This document shows positions 43,699 through 61,469 of a DNA stretch of 64,000 nt, piece after piece; positions within the stretch are counted from its first letter, which is position 1, and every line of letters starts with the position of its first letter. Source of the stretch: a virus. Lineage: Duplodnaviria > Caudoviricetes. The notes beneath the pieces are model-generated. The model did no database searches. It saw only the letters and a program-made list of their open reading frames with translations, and was not told the origin of the DNA. Made by a program: the position numbers and the translations under genes. The DNA is taken from positions 1 to 64,000 of the IMG/VR virus record IMGVR_UViG_2562617147_000003. One strand, given 5' to 3'.

Positions 43699-44011
43699 GG
43701 CTTAATTTTAAACGGCCTTGGGGGCTTTGACAACCACAGAGGGATAAAAGGACGGGCCGGGGGATGGAGGTCATCCTCGGCTCGTTTCTATGCCAATGAG
43801 GGCAGTATGGCTTGTTGCTGGTGCTTGTTGACGGGGGTTACATAGGGTTTGTCTTTGATGTTGACGGGGTTGAAATTTATTTACATCCTGGAGTAGCACA
43901 AGCTTAATCTGCTTGGTTTTACTAATAATACTTCTTAATCCTGTATGATTATTAATTATATTAATGTGTTACTTTCAGTGTGGAAATATCCTACGGAAAG
44001 CGAGGTTAAAA

Positions 44012-45568
44012 ATGGATCTGTCTTCGCTGGTAAAAGATTTCAGTACAACGCCGTTCCTTTTTGTGGGGTCTGGTTTTTCTCGGAGATACTACGGTCTTCC
44101 CGACTGGAAAGGCCTTTTGCAGATTTTTGTCCAAAGAATGAGCAACGATGAGTTTGCGTTCAACAAGTATATAAGCAGGGCTGAAGGCCTTATAAATTCT
44201 GGAAAAGAAGGAATCCTGCTTGCCGTTACCGCCGGACTCATCATGCAAGATTTTGACAGACTTTGGTATGAGGATTCTTCTTTCCGTCAGCTGAGGGATT
44301 CCTACAAGGTGTTTGTGAAGAATGGGCAGTCACCATTTAAGGTAGAGGTAGCCCAATATATTGATAACCATTCCGTCCCTGTGGAAACCATGCGAGGCGA
44401 GCTGGCAAAATTGAAAGAACTTTCCCGCCGTAGCTTGGCTGGCATTATTACCACCAATTATGACTGCCTTCTTGAGATGGAAATGGAGGATTATAAAACC
44501 TTCGTTGGGCAAGAAGAACTTATCTTCTCCGCGCTCCAGGGCTGGGCGGAGATATACAAGATACATGGTTCTGTTACCAATCCGGGTACTATTATCATTA
44601 CAGATAAAGATTACAGGGGATTTAAGGAATACAGTCCTTATCTTGCGGCAAAACTTATGACTATATTTATTGAGTTTCCAATTATATTTATTGGATATTC
44701 AATAAATGACCCTAATATCCGTATAATATTGGAAGAGCTTGGTAGATGTCTTTCGAAGGAAAATCTTCAAAGGCTTCAGCGCCGCTTTATCTATGTGGAG
44801 CATAAGAAGGATAAACATGATATAGAATTTTTTGAACATTCCATAGTGATTCGTGACGACTATATCCATATGACTGGCATTAGAACAGACAATTTTATGG
44901 CAATTTATGAAGCACTTGCTGAAAAACGGGCTTCTCTTCCTGCCAAGCTTATTCGTATGTTCAAACAGGAATTTTATACTTTTGCGCTGACTAGCGAACC
45001 TACGGCCAGAATACGGGTAGCTAATATTGATGACGCACGAGTAAGAGATGAAGATCTCATGATTGCGATTGGGAAAGCGTCGGAGTTTGGTTTGAGGGGA
45101 TTGTCCGGCATGACGATGAAAGAATGGTATCAACATGTTGTTCTACATGATCTTGAATTCTCTGCTGACGACATCCTAACGTATGCTTTTCCTGTCTTGC
45201 ATAGAAAAAACATGGCCCTGCCGTTGAACATGCTGCTGAACGAGGCAAACAGGTCATACCCTGAATGCGAAGCAAACAGATGTGCTAGTTTTGATTCTAT
45301 ACTAAACTCAAATTATAGAAAAGGAAGGAATAGAACTATAGAGGTGAGAAGCATAAATGGAATCATTAAATGTTTTAATAATGATATGCATAAAATCATA
45401 TATGAGATTCCGTATCTCAAGGAATCAGAGATTGATGTAGAGGAGTTGGAAGCCTATCTGAGAGGACTCTTTTATCAAAAAGGGCTTTATAATAACCTAG
45501 ATAACAATAAAAGGTCAGATCTGCACAGAGTGGTACGGATATTTGATTATCTCAAATATGGCAGATAA
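44012..45568 (+). CDS. Sir2-family (SIR2_2) protein, candidate anti-phage NADase
   Basis: PFLFVGSGFS..LPDW; IITTNYD; YKIHGS; IIFIGYSINDPNI; low GC. Confidence 0.9.
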   Translation: MDLSSLVKDFSTTPFLFVGSGFSRRYYGLPDWKGLLQIFVQRMSNDEFAFNKYISRAEGLINSGKEGILLAVTAGLIMQDFDRLWYEDSSFRQLRDSYKVFVKNGQSPFKVEVAQYIDNHSVPVETMRGELAKLKELSRRSLAGIITTNYDCLLEMEMEDYKTFVGQEELIFSALQGWAEIYKIHGSVTNPGTIIITDKDYRGFKEYSPYLAAKLMTIFIEFPIIFIGYSINDPNIRIILEELGRCLSKENLQRLQRRFIYVEHKKDKHDIEFFEHSIVIRDDYIHMTGIRTDNFMAIYEALAEKRASLPAKLIRMFKQEFYTFALTSEPTARIRVANIDDARVRDEDLMIAIGKASEFGLRGLSGMTMKEWYQHVVLHDLEFSADDILTYAFPVLHRKNMALPLNMLLNEANRSYPECEANRCASFDSILNSNYRKGRNRTIEVRSINGIIKCFNNDMHKIIYEIPYLKESEIDVEELEAYLRGLFYQKGLYNNLDNNKRSDLHRVVRIFDYLKYGR

Positions 45569-51579: not shown

Positions 51580-51648
51580 ACAACAAACATAGCCCCGGCG
51601 GAGAATTCTCCGTCAGGGCTATGTTTGTGAAGCACGTTAACTGCTCTA
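51580..51648. terminator. hairpin / half-MITE between convergent genes
   Basis: ACAAACATAGCCC...GGGCTATGTTTGT stem followed by TGCTCTAA. Confidence 0.55.
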
Positions 51649-51654
51649 AAAACG

Positions 51655-52089
51655 CTAGGATTTGGGAACGGACTTGTCCAGCAGCTTGTTTCTACAGGAG
51701 GAAACTTTGCCGCTATCAAGCATCCAGCGGAAGTAGGCGTAACAATCGCTTTTCGCGCCTTCTTTGCGCAGCATCTCCGCGTCGTTCATCCATACGAAGA
51801 AGACTTCTTTATCCGTGCTGAAAAATTTGAAAAACATGCGGTAACGAGAGGGCAACAGGCGTTTTATCCTGCGCCAGTCCCGGTGCTCGGTCCCAAGGGT
51901 ATTCCCGAGCAGATATTCCGGGTGGGTGGGATCCTGACGCGCTTTTTCCATCCCTCTCACAGCGCCGACATAAAGCTGTATGTCAGGGTGATTGCGCAGA
52001 TTCTGATTTTCCCGGCGCAGCCGTTCGATGTTCCGTTCGAGCTGCTTCAAGCGGCTGTCAAGGTGGCGGGTAATATATGCGGCCCACAT
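51655..52089 (-). CDS. YhaV-family RelE-like RNase toxin
   Basis: DP..EYLLGNTLG..HRDWRR...RYRMFFKF...VWMND..LRKEG..SD.Y..F..ML. Confidence 0.85.
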   Translation of the reverse strand: MWAAYITRHLDSRLKQLERNIERLRRENQNLRNHPDIQLYVGAVRGMEKARQDPTHPEYLLGNTLGTEHRDWRRIKRLLPSRYRMFFKFFSTDKEVFFVWMNDAEMLRKEGAKSDCYAYFRWMLDSGKVSSCRNKLLDKSVPKS

Positions 52090-52094
52090 ATCGG

Positions 52095-52721
52095 CTAGTC
52101 CACGTACTGGGAAAGTTCGTCGGCAAACTTTTTCATTTCAGCCCACCGCTCGTCGCTTATTTTTGATGCCGTGCGCAGGTCATCTCCCGGCAAGGCTGCC
52201 TGCAGTCCGGCAACGGCTTTCTCATCGTTCTCGCCGTCAATGCTCAAAAGTGCTGCGGCTTGGGACAGCACAGGGCTGAAAATCCCCATTTGGGCGGCCG
52301 CATGTATGATGTCCGCCGCCGCATCCATATCGCCGATATCGACCGCGGTAACGATAAGGCTGTCGATGAATATCCAATCGTTCTGCTGTTTGCAGAGAGC
52401 CAGGCTTTCGCGGATTTCCTGGGATGCTTTTTCCGGATATCCGTGATTGGCGAGTAAAACCGCGTAATTGGCATGCACATCAAGGGAATTCGGCGCGATT
52501 TGAAGGGCTTCCTCAAAGCAGCGCATGACCGAAGCGGCATCCCCGTCAACGGACGCCAGCAGAGCCTGTAAAATAAGCGCGCATACGGGATCATGTCCCA
52601 TACCGGCGTCGATAGCCCTTGTGATTTCATAGCGGTCAATATCGCCCAAGCGCCTGCCGTCCTTGATCACGGTATTGAGCTTGGCGACATATTCGTTGAT
52701 CTTAAGCGCGGGAACCGGCAT
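52095..52721 (-). CDS. TPR-like helical protein
   Basis: FEEALQIAPNSLDVHANYAVLLANHG TPR-like motif; 5 nt upstream of the YhaV-like gene. Confidence 0.7.
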   Translation of the reverse strand: MPVPALKINEYVAKLNTVIKDGRRLGDIDRYEITRAIDAGMGHDPVCALILQALLASVDGDAASVMRCFEEALQIAPNSLDVHANYAVLLANHGYPEKASQEIRESLALCKQQNDWIFIDSLIVTAVDIGDMDAAADIIHAAAQMGIFSPVLSQAAALLSIDGENDEKAVAGLQAALPGDDLRTASKISDERWAEMKKFADELSQYVD

Positions 52722-52906
52722 TGCATACCTCTCTGGCCCGGAGGATACTGTGAGGGCAGATGAAGCTCAATGAATTTTATTTTGCCCTCTGAAGCGAAGG
52801 CACGCTATGCCGCTGGCTTTCTGGCCCGCGTCCAAGCAGGCCTGCAACGCAGCGAGGGGACTCCACAATCTGTGGCTATACCGAGATGGAAAGGTAAAAT
52901 AGAAAA

Positions 52907-53677
52907 CTATGAAACAGCTCTACATAAATTTTGTCGAGCTCTCGGGGGAATTTGAATTTGTTCTCTTTTAAAAATAACAGAGCGTAAATCTTGTAAAAAA
53001 TTATTTACACTTGGCATGGATACCCGCAAAGGGTCTATCTGACCTCTATTGATAAGCTCACATAGTGTTCTTGCTGAGTAGTCACCAATAACTTCTCTCA
53101 AAATTGCTTTTGCATAATGTGGACTCGTATCGCTCCCAGATAATTGAGTCTCTAATCTTGCACACTTTTGCGTTTGATAATTCTCTTTTAAGGCACATAT
53201 TAACCATGCTTCAGAAGTTGGACATGGAACAATAGGACAAATATGAAAAATATTACTGTCTTGCGAAAAACAGGATGCTGTTTTTATTGAATTCCGAATT
53301 TCTGTATTTCGTCTAGTATCATGAGAGCGATTATCAGTATCGCGGAATAAGATAGGAAGTACATCATCACTCTGCTGCTGAGAGAGCGATAATGCCGCCG
53401 CCATTAAAGCGCGCGTCCTCTTTCTCCCTTCAGCGGAGTCATTTTCTCTTCCACTTGAAATTGCCATAGGCACAAGTCGCCTAGATATACCAGCAATATA
53501 AGTTCTAGGGGCAAACCAAAATTGTCCAACTGTTAGGGTAGATTCTATATGGGCTTGAATAAATTTTTCAATAAACAGTGTAATCGGACCAAGAGTCCAG
53601 CTACCAGGCGGGCATAAATCAGTGGAAGTCGCACATCCAATGTCTGTTGGCCCTTCTCCTGTAACCAAGACTAACAT
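52907..53677 (-). CDS. TOPRIM-like protein (DUF4276/RloB-like)
   Basis: VTGEGPTD, FRDTD and P..EAWL motifs; TAATG coupling to the ATPase. Confidence 0.7.
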   Translation of the reverse strand: MLVLVTGEGPTDIGCATSTDLCPPGSWTLGPITLFIEKFIQAHIESTLTVGQFWFAPRTYIAGISRRLVPMAISSGRENDSAEGRKRTRALMAAALSLSQQQSDDVLPILFRDTDNRSHDTRRNTEIRNSIKTASCFSQDSNIFHICPIVPCPTSEAWLICALKENYQTQKCARLETQLSGSDTSPHYAKAILREVIGDYSARTLCELINRGQIDPLRVSMPSVNNFLQDLRSVIFKREQIQIPPRARQNLCRAVS

Positions 53678-54831
53678 TATTCTAGCCCTTTTTCTTCAAG
53701 CGCGCTAATCTCTTTAGAAATTTCAGTTGAACTGGAATCAAGAAAAGCCTCTCCAGGTCCTAAAAAATCAAGTTTCTCATTGATGCCTGGAAGAGAGAAG
53801 AATTTAACTGCTCCTGAATTTCCAGCTTCCTTTCTATACATGAGAATCACAGAATCCCGTGCGATCTTCTCATCAATATAATTAAGAATAACAGGATTAT
53901 GTGTTGTTATAAGTATTTGTTTGTTACAATCCATAATAAAATCTATAAGCTTTTTCATTACCTCAGGGTTAAGCCCATTTTCAATTTCATCAAAGATAAT
54001 AAATGTATCAAGTGTTTCAATTTCTGTAAGAAAGGCAAGTATCCTTAATAACCCATCGCAGGTGTGTGTAGCCGATACTCTAATAATTCCAGATTCAGAC
54101 TCTTCAGTAAATTCAATATCTGTCCAGCCAGCTCTCCGGGTTATTGCACGTGCCGAATGGAACCATGGGTAAATATCTTTTAGTCTAGAATTAATTTTAT
54201 CTTTTTGTGCTGATGAAAGGCCAGAAAAGACACCTGCAACACGTTCTCCTCCACGCCCAATACCTCCAGAGGTACGCCGAGATCTGGCTCGAAGCTGTAA
54301 GGAATTGAGTGTGTCAAAAGAATGCATTCCTCTTATATACGAGGAAAATTTATTAGCTGTATTCCCATTTTTGATAAAATTTTGTTTTAAATGAGCTAAG
54401 ATAGATCCTTCGAATTCATTTACAATTGGATATATGTTATTATTACAAGTAACTTTTCCTTCAGAAACACTGAGAATGTGTTCACCATCAATCAGCATTT
54501 TTTCTGTTATACATCTTCTGAGTATTGTATTGTATGATGCTTCCCATGAAATGTGTTTTTTATCAAAACAACCTTCTAATTTAAGTGAGATCGTGCGCAT
54601 TTTTTTTGATGACATAATATCAAGCGGATTCCAGCCTCGACTATTAAACCAGCTTGTGAGATTTCCCCGAAAAATTGCGCCAATGAAATCAAGGCACTGG
54701 AGTACAGTGGATTTTCCGCTACCATTATTACCAATTAAAAAAAGTATATTCCCATCTTTTGGAAAAGGAAGTGAAAAATCATTCAGCGATTTAAATTTAT
54801 CAATATGAAGAGCGGTAATTCTGTCCATCAT
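53677..54831 (-). CDS. ABC-type ATPase (AAA_15/AAA_21)
   Basis: FKS, GNNGSGKST, CDG signature variant, FDEIENGLNP, ITTHNP. Confidence 0.9.
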   Translation of the reverse strand: MMDRITALHIDKFKSLNDFSLPFPKDGNILFLIGNNGSGKSTVLQCLDFIGAIFRGNLTSWFNSRGWNPLDIMSSKKMRTISLKLEGCFDKKHISWEASYNTILRRCITEKMLIDGEHILSVSEGKVTCNNNIYPIVNEFEGSILAHLKQNFIKNGNTANKFSSYIRGMHSFDTLNSLQLRARSRRTSGGIGRGGERVAGVFSGLSSAQKDKINSRLKDIYPWFHSARAITRRAGWTDIEFTEESESGIIRVSATHTCDGLLRILAFLTEIETLDTFIIFDEIENGLNPEVMKKLIDFIMDCNKQILITTHNPVILNYIDEKIARDSVILMYRKEAGNSGAVKFFSLPGINEKLDFLGPGEAFLDSSSTEISKEISALEEKGLE

Positions 54832-55829: not shown

Positions 55830-57017
55830 AAAGAGAAAAATGAAGAACCCGCCCATTACTGCATCATGCGGCGGCGCTCATCCAGATATAGGGCATGGTT
55901 ATATGCGCGCCGCACACTGTCGCGTTCCCCCGTGGGCGAGTTGTGCCTCGATAATGTCCGACCTGTACCCTTGTTCGTTGAGCAGAGTAGAAGCCATGCT
56001 CCGGAAACCATGAATTGTCATCTCCCCCTTAGTGTAGCCCATACGCCGCAGCGCATTGAGCAGGCCCATATTCGACATGCAACGGGTCATGGTGAAGGGG
56101 GAGGGAAACAGCAGCAGGGATCGCCCCGAATATTCGCGTAGGGATTCAAGCAGTTCTAATACTTGCCGGGCCAGCGGCACAATATGGGGGCGGCGCATCT
56201 TCATGCGCCCGGCGGGGATGAGCCACTCAGCCCTGGCAATGTCTATCTCTGCCCACGCGGCCCCGCGCAACTCAACGGAGCGGACGAAAAGGTAGGGGAG
56301 GGTTTGCAACGCATGGCGGGTTACAGGGTCGCCCTGATAGCCGTCGATGGCTTGGAGCAGCCGTCCTATGGCTGCCGGGTCGGTTATCGTTGCGTGGTGC
56401 CTGTCTTTGGGGATTGGGGGCAAAGCTTCGTGCAGGCCCGCCGCAACGTCGAATTTTGCATATCCGACAATCCGAGCATATCTGCAAATTTTCCCCATAA
56501 GTTGGGTCAACCTATGAGACATTTCAACAGCACCCCGGCTCTGTGTGTGCCGGACCGCTTCAAGGATATGAGCAGGCTCCAGGGTTGCAAAGGGGATGCT
56601 TCCAATGAACGGGAAGATATGATTTTCCAACCGTGAGAGCAGTTGTTTTTTATAGCCCTCGGTCAATTGTGTTGTCTTTGTCGCAAACCACTCGCGCGCC
56701 ACGGTTTCAAATGTCCTGGTTTTTTCTTCCGCAATGACAACGGCGGCGGCTTTGACTTCCTTTTTGTGCTCGCTAGGGTCTACGCCGTGGGCCAGCAAGG
56801 TTCGCGCCTCATCCCGCCGCTTGCGGGCCTCTTTCAAAGAAATGTCTGGATACACGCCTAGGGCCAACGTTTTTTGCTTGCCGCCGAAGCGATATGCCAA
56901 GCGCCAATACTTCCCGCCCTTGGCGTAGACATGGATATAACGCCCGCCGCCGTCCGCCTTTTTCAGTGTGCGGCCCGTGGCCTTCAATCCCCTCAACAGC
57001 GTGTCTGACAGTGCCAT
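55830..57017 (-). pseudogene. P4-like integrase with arm domain, frameshifted before the catalytic Tyr
   Basis: DGGG..YRFGGKQKTLALGVYP; R..E, HGFR, LAH motifs; extra G at 55927-31 diverts the frame from ...VRRAYNH...; in-frame TAA at 55856-58. Confidence 0.85.
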
Positions 57018-57333: not shown

Positions 57334-58197
57334 ATGCTTACGTTAGATGAAGCCTGGAACAGCTATCTTGCGACCCGCCACCTGACCCCATACGGGTATT
57401 TGACGGATATGAGCCGTTACCGTGTCCATCTGCAAACTTATTGGCACGGAAAAACTCTAACGTCAATAAAAACCCTGGATATTCAATTTTATACAAACCA
57501 CCTGTTTGAGAAAGGACTTTCTCCGCAAACCGTCAGGCTATGCCTTGGCCAGTTGCGGCGCATCATGCGTCGCGCTCATCGGTTAGGGCTACTGGAAGGC
57601 CAACTGCCATATTTTGAAATGCCCCCAGCCGACAGCGTGCGTTACCGTTATCTTGAGCCGGAGGAGGCCACTAGTCTTTTGCAGGTGTTACGCAATCTCT
57701 CTCAGCTTTGGCATGACATAGCCTTGCTTTCTCTTAATACAGGAATGCGGGCGAGTGAGATTTTTTCTTTGCGTGGAGCCAATATAAATGTTCCACAAGA
57801 GAATATTATTTTGCATAAAACAAAAAATCTCAAGCAGCGTATTGTTCCATTGAATAGTCCATCCCTAAACATTGTAAAAAAATATCATAGAAAAAATGCA
57901 GAGCTTCTTTTTCATCAGGAAGAAAGCTCTAATAAGCAATTTGTAAAAATATCAAAAAAATTCAGAAGAGCAGTTGAGATAAGCGGATTAAATGAAGGCA
58001 TTATAGATAATCGTTATCGTGTTGTTTTTCATACTCTACGTCATACATTTGCAAGTTGGCTTGTGCAGCGTGGAGTATCATTGCAGGTTGTCAGCAATCT
58101 TTTAGGACACAGCTCTGTTCGCGTAACTGAACGCTATGCGCATCTTGCGCCGGATCAAGGCCGAAATGCTCTTAAATTTTTGCCTTGTATTTCATAG
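57334..58197 (+). CDS. tyrosine recombinase (Rci/HP1-like)
   Basis: TGMRASE, TKNLKQRIVPL, HTLRHTFASW, LGH...YAH; all catalytic residues present. Confidence 0.92.
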   Translation: MLTLDEAWNSYLATRHLTPYGYLTDMSRYRVHLQTYWHGKTLTSIKTLDIQFYTNHLFEKGLSPQTVRLCLGQLRRIMRRAHRLGLLEGQLPYFEMPPADSVRYRYLEPEEATSLLQVLRNLSQLWHDIALLSLNTGMRASEIFSLRGANINVPQENIILHKTKNLKQRIVPLNSPSLNIVKKYHRKNAELLFHQEESSNKQFVKISKKFRRAVEISGLNEGIIDNRYRVVFHTLRHTFASWLVQRGVSLQVVSNLLGHSSVRVTERYAHLAPDQGRNALKFLPCIS

Positions 58198-58319
58198 TAT
58201 TACATATCATCAATGCAAAAAATCGCAACCTTCTGCAACTTTCTGCAATTGTGCTGACAGCTTTTGCGGAAATTTGTTAATAGTTGCAAAGATAATCAAT
58301 GCAGAAGAAGACAGGACAG

Positions 58320-58365
58320 GTAAAGTAACGTCACTTTTCAAGTGACGACTTTACGTCCTGCCCCC
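58320..58365 (+). promoter_or_regulatory. IncP/R64-type oriT
   Basis: Inverted repeat GTAAAGT..CGTCACTT-TTC-AAGTGACG-ACTTTAC followed by GTCCTG^CCC, close to the YATCCTG^Y nic consensus; MOBP relaxase downstream. Confidence 0.7.
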
Positions 58366-58427
58366 TCAACGCCGGGGGTGGCTTGCTTATTCGCCTTCGG
58401 CTCAACGCTAAAAACAGGGAGAAAATC

Positions 58428-59309
58428 ATGGAAGACAGCCAGACCAACGAACAGGAAATCACCACGCAACCCATTGAAAACATTGTTGAGATTAACGACG
58501 GCAAGATGTTCACCACGTCGCTGACCGTCGCCAATGCCTTCGAGAAGGAGCACAAAAACGTGCTTCAGGCGATTGAAAATTTGGAGTGCTCGAAGGAGTT
58601 TCTAGAGCTGAATTTTCAGCTCTGTAATTATTCCAGTGAGTTAGCACCAGATGGGCGAAAATATTCCTTTTATCAGATCACCCGCGACGGCTTCGCCTTC
58701 CTGGCCATGGGCTTCACGGGCAAGAAGGCGGCCTGGAAAGAGAAGTTCCTGGAGGCGTTTAACGCGATGGAAGCGGCGCTGCTGGCCAGACGGCCGGAAG
58801 AACCGAGGCCCATTCTGGAAGAAGAGGAGAAAGCCATCTCCCCCAAGGAGCGTAGTCGTTTCTTCAGGCCCAGGCGAAAAATATCCAAGAGCGACGCTAA
58901 AGCCGTGCATGGTTTGCTCCATATGGAGTCATTTGTTCAAGAAATGACCTGGGATGAAGCTGTGGCGCGGTTTTGCGAGAAAATGCATATTGAAAGGATT
59001 GAGGATTTGCCCCAATCCGATTTCATGGAGGCCATTACCAATACTTTTAAAAAGCTTTTTTTCGTGCACACCTGGGAGCGTCAAGAGAGCAATCCGGCTT
59101 CAGTGGAGTTGAGGGATGCTTTTCAGGGGATGCTGACTTTCTGGCGTCAGGTGACCGACTTCTCGGAGACAGATATTCGCAACTATATTCTTAACCGTTG
59201 TGGTGTGGATAGCCTGGACGACATTGTGAGCGAACGGGACACCCTCAAGGCCCTTTTCGTTCTTTGGGGAGGGATTGCCAATCATACCTTGGAAGCGCGG
59301 GTCTGGTAG
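58428..59309 (+). CDS. Rha family phage regulatory protein
   Basis: TTSLTVANAFEKEHKNVLQAIENL...ITRDGFAFLAMGFTG..A.K..F..AFNAME. Confidence 0.9.
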   Translation: MEDSQTNEQEITTQPIENIVEINDGKMFTTSLTVANAFEKEHKNVLQAIENLECSKEFLELNFQLCNYSSELAPDGRKYSFYQITRDGFAFLAMGFTGKKAAWKEKFLEAFNAMEAALLARRPEEPRPILEEEEKAISPKERSRFFRPRRKISKSDAKAVHGLLHMESFVQEMTWDEAVARFCEKMHIERIEDLPQSDFMEAITNTFKKLFFVHTWERQESNPASVELRDAFQGMLTFWRQVTDFSETDIRNYILNRCGVDSLDDIVSERDTLKALFVLWGGIANHTLEARVW

Positions 59310-59310
59310 C

Positions 59311-59637
59311 ATGCCGGAAGAAAAGAAGCCCAAACGCACGGAACGGCTACAAGCCTATGTGACGCCGGAGGAGTTCACTCTTATCATGGAGTCCAGCGAC
59401 CGGGCCGGGCTGAGCATGTCGGAGTTCGCCCGGCGTGTGTGTCTGGGCTTCCGGGTGGAGAGCCGGGAGGACCAGCAGGCCCGGCGGGAGCTGCTGAAGG
59501 TCAACGCCGATCTGGGGCGGCTGGGCGGCCTGCTCAAGCAGGCTCTGGCCACCGGCCATAAGGAGCAGATTTACGGACTGCTCCATAAGATTGATCAGCT
59601 TCAGGCAAGCCTGAAGGCCAGGATCAGGGCGCTATGA
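59311..59637 (+). CDS. MobC/TraJ-like relaxosome protein
   Basis: RHH-like V..EE..I...AGLSMSEFARR..G...ELLKVNADLGRLGGLLK. Confidence 0.85.
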   Translation: MPEEKKPKRTERLQAYVTPEEFTLIMESSDRAGLSMSEFARRVCLGFRVESREDQQARRELLKVNADLGRLGGLLKQALATGHKEQIYGLLHKIDQLQASLKARIRAL

Positions 59638-61469
59638 TCAGCAAGCGGATTCCGTGTGCCCCTAAAAATGATAACTACGCCCGGCTGGCAAATTACATTG
59701 CCGCCGGGCGTGAACATGACATGCAGCAGGAGTTTAGCGATGGACAACGGCACTATGATCCGCAGCGCCACTTTGAAACAGGTCAAGGCATTGCCGGAAA
59801 CCGCATGCGTCGGCTGTCCGAATGCCGTCTGGCATCTTACTCGCAAGGACAGGAAAGAGGAGCTGCGGATTTTCTGCCTGCTGATGCACGCCTTGATCGA
59901 CGCGCCGATGGCGGCGTGCGACGGCACGCTGATCTTCCCGAAGATGTAAAACCTGAAAAATGCCTCATGAGCTGGTGCGCCGGGTGCTGGGCCGGGGACG
60001 ATTACGAGCTGGCCATCCAGGAAGTGGCCGATACCCAGGCGCTTAATACGCGCACCACCCAGGAGAAAACCTATCATCTGATTGTGAGTTTCCGGCCGGA
60101 AGATGAAACCAGGCTGACGCCGGAAACATTCAAGGCCATTGAGGAACGCTTTGCCCTGGCTTTGGGGCTATCGGAACATCAGCGGCATTGCGGCGTCCAC
60201 GTCAACACGGAAAACATGCACATGCACGTCGCTTATAATCTGATCCACCCGGAAAAGCTGACGCGCGTGGAGCCCTGGCGGGACTATATCAAGCGCGACA
60301 AGCTCTGCCGGGAGTTGGAGAAGGAATACGGCCTTGTCATCGACAACGGCCGGGATAAGGCCCAGGAACAGGGCCTTGGTGAAAGGGCCGCAACCGTGGA
60401 GGCGCACACCGGCCGACAGTCTTTTGAGGGCTACGCGCGCGACCAGGGCGAGGCCATTCTGGCCATATTGGAAAATGCGCGTTCCTGGGAGGACGTGCAT
60501 TGCGCCTTTGCCCGGCATGGCCTGGAGCTGAAGCCGCGCGGGGCCGGACTTGTGGTCAAGGACCGACATGGGCGGCACATGGCCAAGGCCAGCGCCGTGC
60601 ATCGGGATTTATCCCGGAAGAAGCTGGAAGCCCGGTTTGGAGCCTTCCAGCCATCCAGGGGAGCAATGCCGGAAAGCGAACGACGCTACGGCGCTGATCC
60701 GCTTCAGAAGGCACCGAACCGGAATCAGCTCTGGCAGGAGTTCCAGGAACAGCGCCAGGTCCAAAAAATAGGCCTGGAAGATATCCGCCGGAAGTGGGAG
60801 CAACAGCGCATGGACTTGCAGCGCAGGCCCATAGCGCGCAGGACCAGGGCTAATCTTATGAAAATGGTCCGCCAGTATGAAGCGGAAGAAATCCACGCCG
60901 CGCGCGTGAACCAGGGCGCGGGCAACTGGCTTGATTTTTTGCGGCAGAAAGCCGCCCAAGGCGACGAAACCGCCCTGGCCGTCTTACGCTCCAGAAAAGA
61001 GGAAATCGCGCCGGAGATAACGCAGAGTCGCATGCAGGCCCGCGCGGCCTATCTGGCCAGCAAGACTGCAATCCTGGAGAATGCCGAGCTTTCCACCAAA
61101 ACAAAAAACCGCCTCATCAGCGTCGCACTGATGGAGAGCCTGGCCAGTGGAACCACGGCCAGGATCAGCAAGCTCGGCAGTATCATCTATACGCTCCCCG
61201 ATGGCGGGAAAATTTGCGACACCGGGCGCAGCATCAGCTTCAGCGACGGGGCCAGGGAAACGGCCCTGGATTATATGACTGCCAAGTGGAGCGTAAAGCG
61301 AAGGCGGGTGTCTCTGGACAGGGACACAGGCGATCTCGTGTACACGCTGGACAGTGGCCAGAAGATCTATGAGCGGAAGGGGCGGAATGTCTTTGAACGG
61401 CCCGCCGTTGTCCACCGGCAGCGCCAGTTGGAGCGGGAGCGGCCCAGGAACCAGGGTATGGAGCGGTAA
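59634..61469 (+). CDS. MOBP (RP4 TraI-like) relaxase
   Basis: NYARLANYI, TYHLIVSFRP, HQR..VH.NTENMHMHVAYN.IHP. Confidence 0.9.
   Translation: MISKRIPCAPKNDNYARLANYIAAGREHDMQQEFSDGQRHYDPQRHFETGQGIAGNRMRRLSECRLASYSQGQERGAADFLPADARLDRRADGGVRRHADLPEDVKPEKCLMSWCAGCWAGDDYELAIQEVADTQALNTRTTQEKTYHLIVSFRPEDETRLTPETFKAIEERFALALGLSEHQRHCGVHVNTENMHMHVAYNLIHPEKLTRVEPWRDYIKRDKLCRELEKEYGLVIDNGRDKAQEQGLGERAATVEAHTGRQSFEGYARDQGEAILAILENARSWEDVHCAFARHGLELKPRGAGLVVKDRHGRHMAKASAVHRDLSRKKLEARFGAFQPSRGAMPESERRYGADPLQKAPNRNQLWQEFQEQRQVQKIGLEDIRRKWEQQRMDLQRRPIARRTRANLMKMVRQYEAEEIHAARVNQGAGNWLDFLRQKAAQGDETALAVLRSRKEEIAPEITQSRMQARAAYLASKTAILENAELSTKTKNRLISVALMESLASGTTARISKLGSIIYTLPDGGKICDTGRSISFSDGARETALDYMTAKWSVKRRRVSLDRDTGDLVYTLDSGQKIYERKGRNVFERPAVVHRQRQLERERPRNQGMER
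59740..59949 (+). CDS. overprinted 69-aa Cys-rich ORF inside the relaxase gene
   Basis: AGGAG RBS; CVGCPNAVW..FCLLMH..ACDG; spans the non-conserved insertion of the relaxase. Confidence 0.55.
   Translation: MDNGTMIRSATLKQVKALPETACVGCPNAVWHLTRKDRKEELRIFCLLMHALIDAPMAACDGTLIFPKM

What the first reader, a model, noticed from the sequence alone, without database searches (positions are those of the whole stretch)
51655..52721. YhaV-family RNase toxin paired with a TPR-like protein instead of PrlF
Seen: a 208-aa helical TPR-like ORF lies 5 nt upstream of a YhaV-like toxin, and no AbrB-type gene is nearby. Established: YhaV is normally neutralised by the AbrB-fold antitoxin PrlF. Inference: a non-canonical two-gene module in which the TPR protein acts as antitoxin and possibly as phage-protein sensor, sited at the prophage end next to another defence-like pair. 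I do not recognise it as a named system.
Basis: partly seen in the sequence, partly recalled or inferred. Interest (0 to 1): 0.7.

Follow-up and report, generated by a model that had tools for sequence, protein, structure and literature searches.

The report
YhaV toxin with TPR-like antitoxin partner
A prophage of a Desulfovibrio-type bacterium carries a conserved two-gene cassette in which a YhaV-type RNA-cutting toxin is paired with an acidic TPR-like helical protein instead of its usual antidote PrlF. This is most likely a new antitoxin family for a known toxin, but no binding or rescue has been tested.

Summary
A 208-aa ORF (52721..52095, minus strand) lies 5 nt upstream of a 144-aa ORF (52089..51655).

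- **Toxin:** it is a full-length YhaV-family protein (PF11663, 101.5 bits against a cut-off of 35). It has a confident RelE-like model and keeps every family-invariant residue.
- **Partner:** it is an acidic, all-helical TPR-like protein. It has no AbrB or PrlF domain, and I found no significant similarity to the PrlF C-terminal module.
- **Family:** the partner belongs to a small family of about 22 clusters at 50% identity. All 15 distinct members whose surroundings I could read, down to 22-26% identity, sit directly upstream of a YhaV gene.
- **Tree:** on a toxin tree, the TPR-paired toxins form one side of a supported split from the PrlF-paired toxins.
- **Selection:** both genes are under purifying selection.
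- **Setting:** the cassette has its own short conserved leader and a terminator. It sits in prophage cargo between two PADLOC candidate defence systems (PDC-S25 and PDC-M25), near the integrase.

My best reading is a type II toxin-antitoxin pair with a new antitoxin family. The antitoxin role is inferred, and the idea that the TPR domain senses phage proteins is untested. This scan earlier noted a related theme on other DNA: a 290-aa TPR partner of YhaV in a cable bacterium (e1-2612830). I class it as a new variant of a known kind, of moderate interest.

The parts
52722..52780 (-). Conserved 5' leader of the cassette. It holds a putative promoter (-35 TTGAGC at 52770..52765, a 17-nt spacer, -10 TATCCT at 52747..52742) and a Shine-Dalgarno sequence GAGAGG at 52733..52728.
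   Evidence: About 60 nt before the partner's ATG is nearly identical in loci whose upstream cargo differs (window, L019 and L001 against L004 and L009). Homology stops there. The promoter is read by eye and matches 8 of 12 consensus positions. The consensus scan, which needs 9 of 12, reported none, so it is an inference.
52095..52721 (-). Partner gene: a 208-aa acidic (pI 4.47), all-helical TPR-like protein and the candidate antitoxin. The most conserved segments are residues 1-10 (MPxPAxK), 21-30 (RLGDIDR), 51-60 and 191-208 (W..M..LADEL..Y).
51655..52089 (-). Toxin gene: a 144-aa basic (pI 9.95) YhaV-family protein with a RelE/ParE-superfamily fold.
   Evidence: PF11663 at 101.5 bits. AF2 pLDDT 93.5, pTM 0.88. 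Best Foldseek hits are RelE 4fxh_B (E 5.4e-4), PfiT, HigB2, YoeB and ParE. It keeps the residues that are invariant across 28 family members: P54 G62 R74 R84 F87 W100 N102 R108 D115 Y117 F120.
51583..51628 (.). Strong hairpin between the convergent toxin gene and the 1642-aa giant gene. It is the likely two-way terminator and the 3' edge of the cassette.
   Evidence: The folded 91-nt stretch around the hairpin has a minimum free energy of -40.4 kcal/mol (centroid, the hairpin alone, -34.1), z = -5.4, and 0 of 200 shuffles fold as well. The hairpin is conserved in L004, L019 and L001, with paired changes in the stem. The simple terminator scan did not call it.

Best explanation
This is a type II toxin-antitoxin cassette carried as prophage cargo. 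[quoted passage not shown] The upstream gene is translated first and coupled to the toxin gene by a 5-nt gap. It encodes a ~208-aa acidic TPR-like protein that takes the place of PrlF and, I infer, neutralises the toxin by direct binding. The binding surface is probably one or both of the two most conserved non-TPR elements, the N-terminal ~30 residues and the C-terminal amphipathic helix. The partner has no recognisable DNA-binding domain, so autoregulation in the PrlF manner (AbrB domain) is not expected. The cassette has its own short leader and a terminator, and it moves as a unit among phages and related mobile elements. Its likely use to the prophage is addiction or exclusion of competing phages. 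Shown: the anatomy, the family assignments, the strict co-occurrence, the separate toxin clade and purifying selection. Inferred: toxicity, neutralisation by binding, the interface and the biological role.
For: - **Toxin:** PF11663 at 101.5 bits over the full length. The model is RelE-like and the invariant residues are kept.
- **Partner:** a coherent family, 25 sequences aligned, about 22 full-length clusters among 1.84 billion representatives.
- **Co-occurrence:** a YhaV gene follows at -8 to +5 nt in all 15 distinct members read, plus a distant 285-aa relative.
- **Co-inheritance:** partner and toxin distances correlate, Mantel r 0.94, with 0 of 5000 permutations as high.
- **Toxin tree:** TPR-paired and PrlF-module-paired toxins separate at a 95/88 branch, and partner type changes the minimum possible number of times.
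- **Charge:** partners have pI 4.5-5.4 and toxins 9.3-10.1.
- **Selection:** dN/dS is 0.24-0.34 for the partner and 0.12-0.27 for the toxin.
- **No other candidate:** no PrlF or AbrB frame in the record. The spaces inside the cassette are a 5-nt gap, a ~60-nt leader and a terminator.
- **Family function:** from PMC11980606.
Against: - No binding, toxicity or rescue data exist.
- I could not run a complex prediction.
- The partner lacks the DNA-binding domain that most type II antitoxins carry.
- TPR Pfam hits are below the curated cut-offs.
- No natural partner-toxin fusion was found, which is weak evidence.
- No homologue occurs in cultured phages or sequenced plasmids, so no experimental strain is at hand.
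- Correlated distances would also arise simply from two adjacent genes sharing a history.
Confidence: 0.62

Rival explanations
1. The cassette is a prophage-encoded abortive-infection or exclusion system. The TPR-like domain is a sensor that binds a protein of an invading phage and thereby releases or activates the YhaV RNase. This extends the toxin-antitoxin reading with a specific trigger mechanism.
For: TPR solenoids are peptide- and protein-binding modules, as the structural matches to peptide-binding TPR domains show. The cassette lies between two PADLOC candidate defence systems: PDC-S25 at 492 bits and PDC-M25A/B at 410 and 193 bits. The slot next to it holds different cargo in related prophages, as in defence hotspots. 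The central TPR part is the least conserved part of the partner, and the partner evolves 1.5-4 times faster than the toxin.
Against: There is no PADLOC model hit for either gene. dN/dS is well below 1, with no sign of diversifying selection at whole-gene level. A location in a defence island is only guilt by association. No trigger is known.
Confidence: 0.2
2. The partner is a chimeric PrlF derivative. A TPR module replaced the AbrB domain, and the C-terminal tail is a PrlF toxin-binding module diverged beyond detection. The neutralising mechanism would then be the canonical one.
For: They keep only PF15937 positions ~42-90 behind unrelated N-terminal parts (L022, L023, L027, L030) or are 64-92-aa mini versions. 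An earlier scan note reports a 290-aa TPR partner with a PrlF tail in a cable bacterium (e1-2612830). The tail here has the same layout: an acidic run, a helix, a loop and an amphipathic helix. hhalign's best local alignment places the last helix on the second PrlF helix.
Against: The similarity is not significant. hhalign gives P 0.09 and probability <1%. hmmsearch with --max gives 3.1 bits or less in both directions. There is no PF15937 hit for the whole protein (E up to 1) or for ten tails (E up to 10). The toxins paired with this family form their own clade, apart from all PrlF-module-paired toxins, which fits a changed interface.
Confidence: 0.15
3. The 208-aa protein is not the antitoxin. 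It would be an adaptor, chaperone or regulator of the RNase, with the toxin either harmless by itself or controlled by a host factor or an unannotated RNA.
For: The partner has no DNA-binding domain, and its fold is unusual for an antitoxin. Nothing has been tested.
Against: The partner occupies the antitoxin position with tight coupling in every locus. The charges are complementary. The cassette has no room for another gene and no tandem repeats of the type III kind. The toxin keeps all invariant residues.
Confidence: 0.1

Closest known systems
PrlF-YhaV type II toxin-antitoxin system of E. coli K-12 (PF15937 / PF11663)
   Same: The toxin family is the same, with a full-length PF11663 match. 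The gene order is the same (antitoxin first), the coupling is tight, and an acidic partner pairs with a basic toxin.
   Different: The partner is 208 aa and all-helical TPR-like, against 111 aa with an AbrB-type N-terminal domain in E. coli. No PF15937 similarity is detectable, even in the tail. The toxins form a separate clade. This module is phage cargo, whereas the E. coli one lies at a chromosomal locus between garD and agaR.
Chimeric and minimal PrlF-C-module partners of YhaV seen here (L021-L033), and the scan's earlier 290-aa TPR partner with a PrlF tail (e1-2612830)
   Same: They show that YhaV toxins accept partners whose N-terminal part is not AbrB, and that TPR modules can sit in that position.
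   Different: Those partners keep a detectable PrlF C-module (PF15937 positions ~42-90, E 8e-5 to 6e-3), and their toxins cluster with canonical YhaV. The family here has no detectable PrlF module. I could not compare it directly with the earlier 290-aa protein.
RelBE, YefM-YoeB, HigBA and ParDE systems (RelE/ParE superfamily)
   Same: The toxin fold is the same (Foldseek hits). The general logic is an antitoxin segment wrapping the toxin.
   Different: Their antitoxins are small RHH, Phd or HTH proteins that also repress the operon. None is a TPR solenoid.
Sensor-type antitoxins and TPR sensors of phage defence (CapRel-type fused toxin-antitoxins, TPR arms of Avs/STAND proteins; HigBAC triggered by a lambda tail protein, PMC11980606)
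   Same: The concept is that the antitoxin, or a repeat domain, recognises a phage structural protein and frees the toxin. The setting is likewise a prophage or defence island.
   Different: There is no sequence or architectural relationship, and triggering is wholly untested here.

Membership tests
YhaV toxin family (Pfam PF11663; RelE/ParE BECR fold) | Pfam model matched above the curated cut-off over its full length | tested here: met
   101.5 bits against a cut-off of 35, profile positions 4-136 of 138; 100.9 bits in the six-frame search.
YhaV toxin family (Pfam PF11663; RelE/ParE BECR fold) | RelE-like alpha/beta fold | tested here: met
   AF2 pLDDT 93.5, pTM 0.88. The best PDB matches are RelE, PfiT, HigB2, YoeB and ParE, with a best E of 5.4e-4.
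YhaV toxin family (Pfam PF11663; RelE/ParE BECR fold) | Residues invariant across the family are retained | tested here: met
   All 11 invariant columns of a 28-sequence alignment spanning both clades are present in the window's protein. Which of them are catalytic is not established here.
YhaV toxin family (Pfam PF11663; RelE/ParE BECR fold) | Ribosome-dependent mRNA cleavage and growth inhibition | not testable with these tools
   Needs expression and cleavage assays. The family property is taken from PMC11980606.
PrlF antitoxin (Pfam PF15937, AbrB-type N-terminal domain) | PF15937 match | tested here: not met
   No hit for the whole protein at E up to 1, and none for ten family tails at E up to 10.
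PrlF antitoxin (Pfam PF15937, AbrB-type N-terminal domain) | AbrB/SpoVT-type beta-strand DNA-binding domain | tested here: not met
   The model is all-helical, with 12 helices and no strands. No PF04014 frame occurs in the record.
PrlF antitoxin (Pfam PF15937, AbrB-type N-terminal domain) | C-terminal YhaV-binding module (FLxFLxxDI ... LxxRIxxLV) | tested here: inconclusive
   hhalign tail-profile against PrlF-C-profile gives P 0.09. hmmsearch gives 3.1 bits or less in both directions. Divergence beyond detection cannot be excluded.
TPR repeat proteins | A Pfam TPR model above its curated cut-off | tested here: not met
   The best is TPR_2 at 23.5 bits against 27, and TPR_14 at 21.7 against 23.5.
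TPR repeat proteins | Helical-hairpin solenoid fold similar to solved TPR domains | tested here: met
   All top matches are TPR domains (Foldseek TM 0.5-0.6; VIA Z 10-12.3). Profile positions 55-115 hit multi-TPR proteins repeatedly. Caveat: Z below about 13 is common among helical repeats.
Type II toxin-antitoxin system | Two small co-oriented genes, tightly coupled, and conserved as a pair | tested here: met
   A 5-nt gap here, and -8 to +5 nt in 15 distinct pairs. Mantel r 0.94.
Type II toxin-antitoxin system | The antitoxin carries a DNA-binding domain and autoregulates the operon | tested here: not met
   No HTH, RHH or AbrB domain appears in Pfam or NCBIfam or in the model. No clear operator repeat lies in the leader.
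Type II toxin-antitoxin system | The antitoxin binds and neutralises the toxin | not testable with these tools
It needs co-expression and pull-down experiments.
Named anti-phage defence systems (PADLOC-DB 2.0) | A match to a system model | tested here: not met
   No family matches either protein at E up to 1.

The most novel reading that the evidence does not exclude
The TPR-like protein is both antitoxin and direct sensor. It holds YhaV inactive through its conserved N- and C-terminal elements, and its TPR groove captures a protein of an incoming phage, freeing the RNase to shut down translation. That would make it a compact prophage-borne abortive-infection module of a kind not yet named, and one of two ancient branches of the YhaV family.
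Probability: 0.2. Interest if true: 0.7.

Novelty: new variant of a known kind. Interest (0 to 1): 0.45.

Why it matters
This shows that the YhaV toxin family splits into two deep branches with different neutralising partners. One partner is a TPR-like protein with no DNA-binding domain, a fold I could not find described for an antitoxin: the held library has no paper with YhaV, antitoxin and TPR together, and TPR is not mentioned in the NetFlax paper. If the partner does neutralise the toxin, it adds a new antitoxin family. It would also give a simple system for asking how a repeat-protein antitoxin is controlled without autoregulation, and whether its protein-binding groove reads a phage signal. 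The module is small (about 1.2 kb including its own leader and terminator), so it is easy to test.

Tried and rejected
- **Co-folding the pair.** The only in-frame pair (L003) was read through its stop codon (TAA=G, P0183) to serve as a fused proxy. MAFFT could not produce a block-diagonal alignment: partner rows or their tails were pulled onto the toxin columns in A4-A8. I did not fold it, and used the last structure job for the toxin instead.
- **PrlF-tail homology.** This was suggested by eye and by an earlier scan note. It is not significant.
- **Natural partner-toxin fusions.** None were found among longer proteins, which is weak evidence.
- **Locus searches with the partner alignments.** The single-protein scan of IMG/VR found nothing beyond the window's own record.
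- **Cultured phages and plasmids.** There is no partner homologue in either collection. The only toxin homologue among phages is in a Vibrio phage fragment.
- **Consensus promoter and terminator scan.** It found nothing at its thresholds. The promoter and terminator I name come from conservation and folding.
- **Solved structures by sequence.** No YhaV relative is in the PDB.
- **Caveat on the genome search.** Its control E. coli did not ring for PF11663 or PF15937, so I backed the absence of PrlF with my own HMM search.

Full report
**Observation.** The 208-aa ORF runs 52721..52095 and the 144-aa ORF runs 52089..51655, with the stop and the next ATG 5 nt apart. The downstream protein is a full-length member of Pfam PF11663 Toxin_YhaV (E 5.2e-29, 101.5 bits against a cut-off of 35, profile positions 4-136 of 138). 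The upstream protein gives only sub-threshold TPR hits in Pfam and NCBIfam. Neither protein matches any PADLOC model.

**The toxin.** An AF2 model built on 28 homologues is confident (pLDDT 93.5, pTM 0.88). Its best PDB matches are RelE, PfiT, HigB2, YoeB and ParE toxins (best E 5.4e-4). No YhaV relative has a solved structure by sequence search. All 11 columns that are invariant across the 28 sequences, which span both clades described below, are retained: P54, G62, R74, R84, F87, W100, N102, R108, D115, Y117 and F120. The protein is basic, with pI 9.95. [quoted passage not shown] That activity is inferred here, not shown.

**The partner.**
- AF2 gives an all-helical model of 12 helices (pLDDT 81.5, pTM 0.70), with a lower-confidence stretch at residues ~160-190.
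- All leading structural matches are TPR domains. Foldseek finds KLC, PEX5 and consensus TPR at TM 0.5-0.6. VIA-align against 48,161 chains gives Z 10-12.3. The tool's caveat is that such Z values are common for helical repeats.
- A family profile searched against 1.84 billion representatives hits thousands of large multi-TPR proteins, but only through its positions ~55-115. It finds about 22 full-length relatives of 200-210 aa. The protein atlas also places it among TPR clusters.
- The 25-sequence family alignment is most conserved outside the TPR core. The peaks are residues 1-10 (MPxPAxK), 21-30 (RLGDIDR), 51-60, and the C-terminal helix 191-208 (W..M..LADEL..Y).
- All members are acidic, with pI 4.5-5.4.
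- No HTH, RHH or AbrB domain is detectable.

**Is it PrlF in disguise?**
- There is no PF15937 hit for the whole protein or for ten family tails.
I therefore built profiles of that C-module and of the tails of this family.
- hhalign gives P 0.09 and probability below 1%. hmmsearch with all filters off gives at most 3.1 bits in either direction.
- The tails share a layout (an acidic run, a helix, a loop and an amphipathic helix), but homology is not demonstrable.
- No PrlF or AbrB frame exists anywhere in the 74-kb record, nor in the 3.4-Mb Desulfovibrio MAG that carries a 93%-identical copy. That last search has doubtful sensitivity, because the control E. coli did not ring.

**Conservation of the pairing.**
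- Every family member whose surroundings I could read is followed by a PF11663 gene at -8 to +5 nt. This covers close copies (L004-L009, L019) and members at 67%, 47-49%, ~40% and 22-28% identity to the window's partner (L001, L003, L011, L014, L016, L017, L018, L020, L045, L046, L047, L048).
- A distant 285-aa relative in a Cloacimonadota prophage (L025) shares the N-terminal 117 profile positions. It also precedes a YhaV gene.
- Partner and toxin distances are tightly correlated (Mantel r 0.94, 0 of 5000 permutations as high). Two neighbouring genes would show this in any case.
- On a maximum-likelihood tree of 36 toxins, the TPR-paired toxins lie on one side of a 95/88 branch. All toxins paired with a PrlF module (AbrB-PrlF, 110-195-aa chimeras, mini forms) lie on the other. 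Partner type changes the minimum possible number of times.
- Both genes are under purifying selection (dN/dS 0.24-0.34 for the partner, 0.12-0.27 for the toxin). The partner accumulates amino-acid change 1.5-4 times faster than the toxin.

**Cassette limits.**
- About 60 nt upstream of the partner's ATG is conserved between loci whose upstream neighbours differ, and homology ends there.
- That stretch holds a plausible promoter (TTGAGC, 17 nt, TATCCT) and a GAGAGG Shine-Dalgarno sequence. The promoter is my reading, not a scan result.
- Downstream, a strong hairpin at 51583-51628 lies between the toxin gene and the convergent giant gene. The 91-nt stretch around it folds at -40.4 kcal/mol with z -5.4, and the hairpin is conserved with paired stem changes.
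- The cassette has no room for a third gene and no tandem repeats.

**Setting.**
- The record is an IMG/VR provirus, and the closest genome copy is in a Desulfovibrio MAG.
- Upstream are phage genes, including a PF12236 head-tail connector and LPD3 polyvalent giants.
- The cassette lies between the 1642-aa giant gene and a PDC-M25A/B pair (410 and 193 bits).
- A SIR2-type PDC-S25 gene lies 6 kb away (492 bits). The integrase is at 55899-57017, and a separate mobilisable element lies beyond it (second integrase, Rha, relaxase).
- In related prophages the slot next to the cassette holds other cargo. Other family members sit next to portal, terminase or ArdC/MPTase-PolyVal genes. The module is thus consistently cargo of phages or mobile elements.
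- No homologue of the partner occurs in cultured phages or sequenced plasmids.

**Interpretation.** The most economical reading is a type II toxin-antitoxin pair in which a TPR-like protein family has taken the antitoxin role for one deep branch of YhaV toxins. I put this at about 0.6. The main uncertainty is that neutralisation is inferred only from position, coupling, co-occurrence, charge and the lack of any alternative. The sensor idea is attractive given the fold and the neighbourhood, but nothing I could compute supports it specifically (about 0.2). A non-antitoxin role for the partner is less likely (about 0.1).

**Novelty.** Partner exchange among toxin-antitoxin systems is well known. 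What is new here is the antitoxin family and its fold, not the principle, so I class it as a new variant of a known kind. I found no paper in the held library that links YhaV with a TPR partner.

Noticed in passing
window 43964-45568 (+): A low-GC 534-aa SIR2_2-domain protein matches the PADLOC candidate single-gene system PDC-S25 at 492 bits. It sits between phage structural genes and the giant polyvalent gene.
   Followed up: partly
window 52907-54831 (-): Overlapping gene pair matching PADLOC PDC-M25B (193 bits) and PDC-M25A (410 bits; an AAA_21/ABC-type ATPase). GC is 37-40% against ~66% in the phage core. In related prophages (L004-L006) this slot instead holds a 342-aa gene, a DUF4325 gene and a 139-aa gene.
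   Followed up: partly
window 57334-61469 (+): Beyond the prophage integrase (55899-57017) lies a second tyrosine recombinase, a Rha-family regulator and a MobA/VirD2 relaxase with a TraI middle domain. This is a separate mobilisable element abutting the prophage.
   Followed up: no
L022, L023, L024, L026, L030 (Gallionellaceae, Nitrosovibrio and other Pseudomonadota MAGs): YhaV toxins are preceded by 127-129-aa proteins that keep only the C-terminal half of PrlF. Before those comes a conserved 254-289-aa gene with no Pfam hit. This may be a three-gene YhaV module.
   Followed up: partly
L028, L029, L031, L033 (Pseudoalteromonas, Alteromonadaceae and two IMG/VR contigs): YhaV toxins are paired with 64-92-aa mini partners that consist of little more than the FLxLLxxDI...F(D)R(I) motif, next to an integrase. 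These are minimal antitoxins without any DNA-binding domain.
   Followed up: partly
L025 2136-3444 (Cloacimonadota MAG): A 285-aa distant relative of the partner family, with a longer TPR-like body and a very acidic tail, sits with a YhaV gene between a terminase-like and a portal-like gene of a prophage.
   Followed up: partly
The genome search control genomes: The control E. coli did not ring for PF11663 or PF15937, although E. coli K-12 carries prlF-yhaV (L034). Either the control strain lacks the locus or the tool's first look misses these short families, so absences from that tool need a second check.
   Followed up: partly
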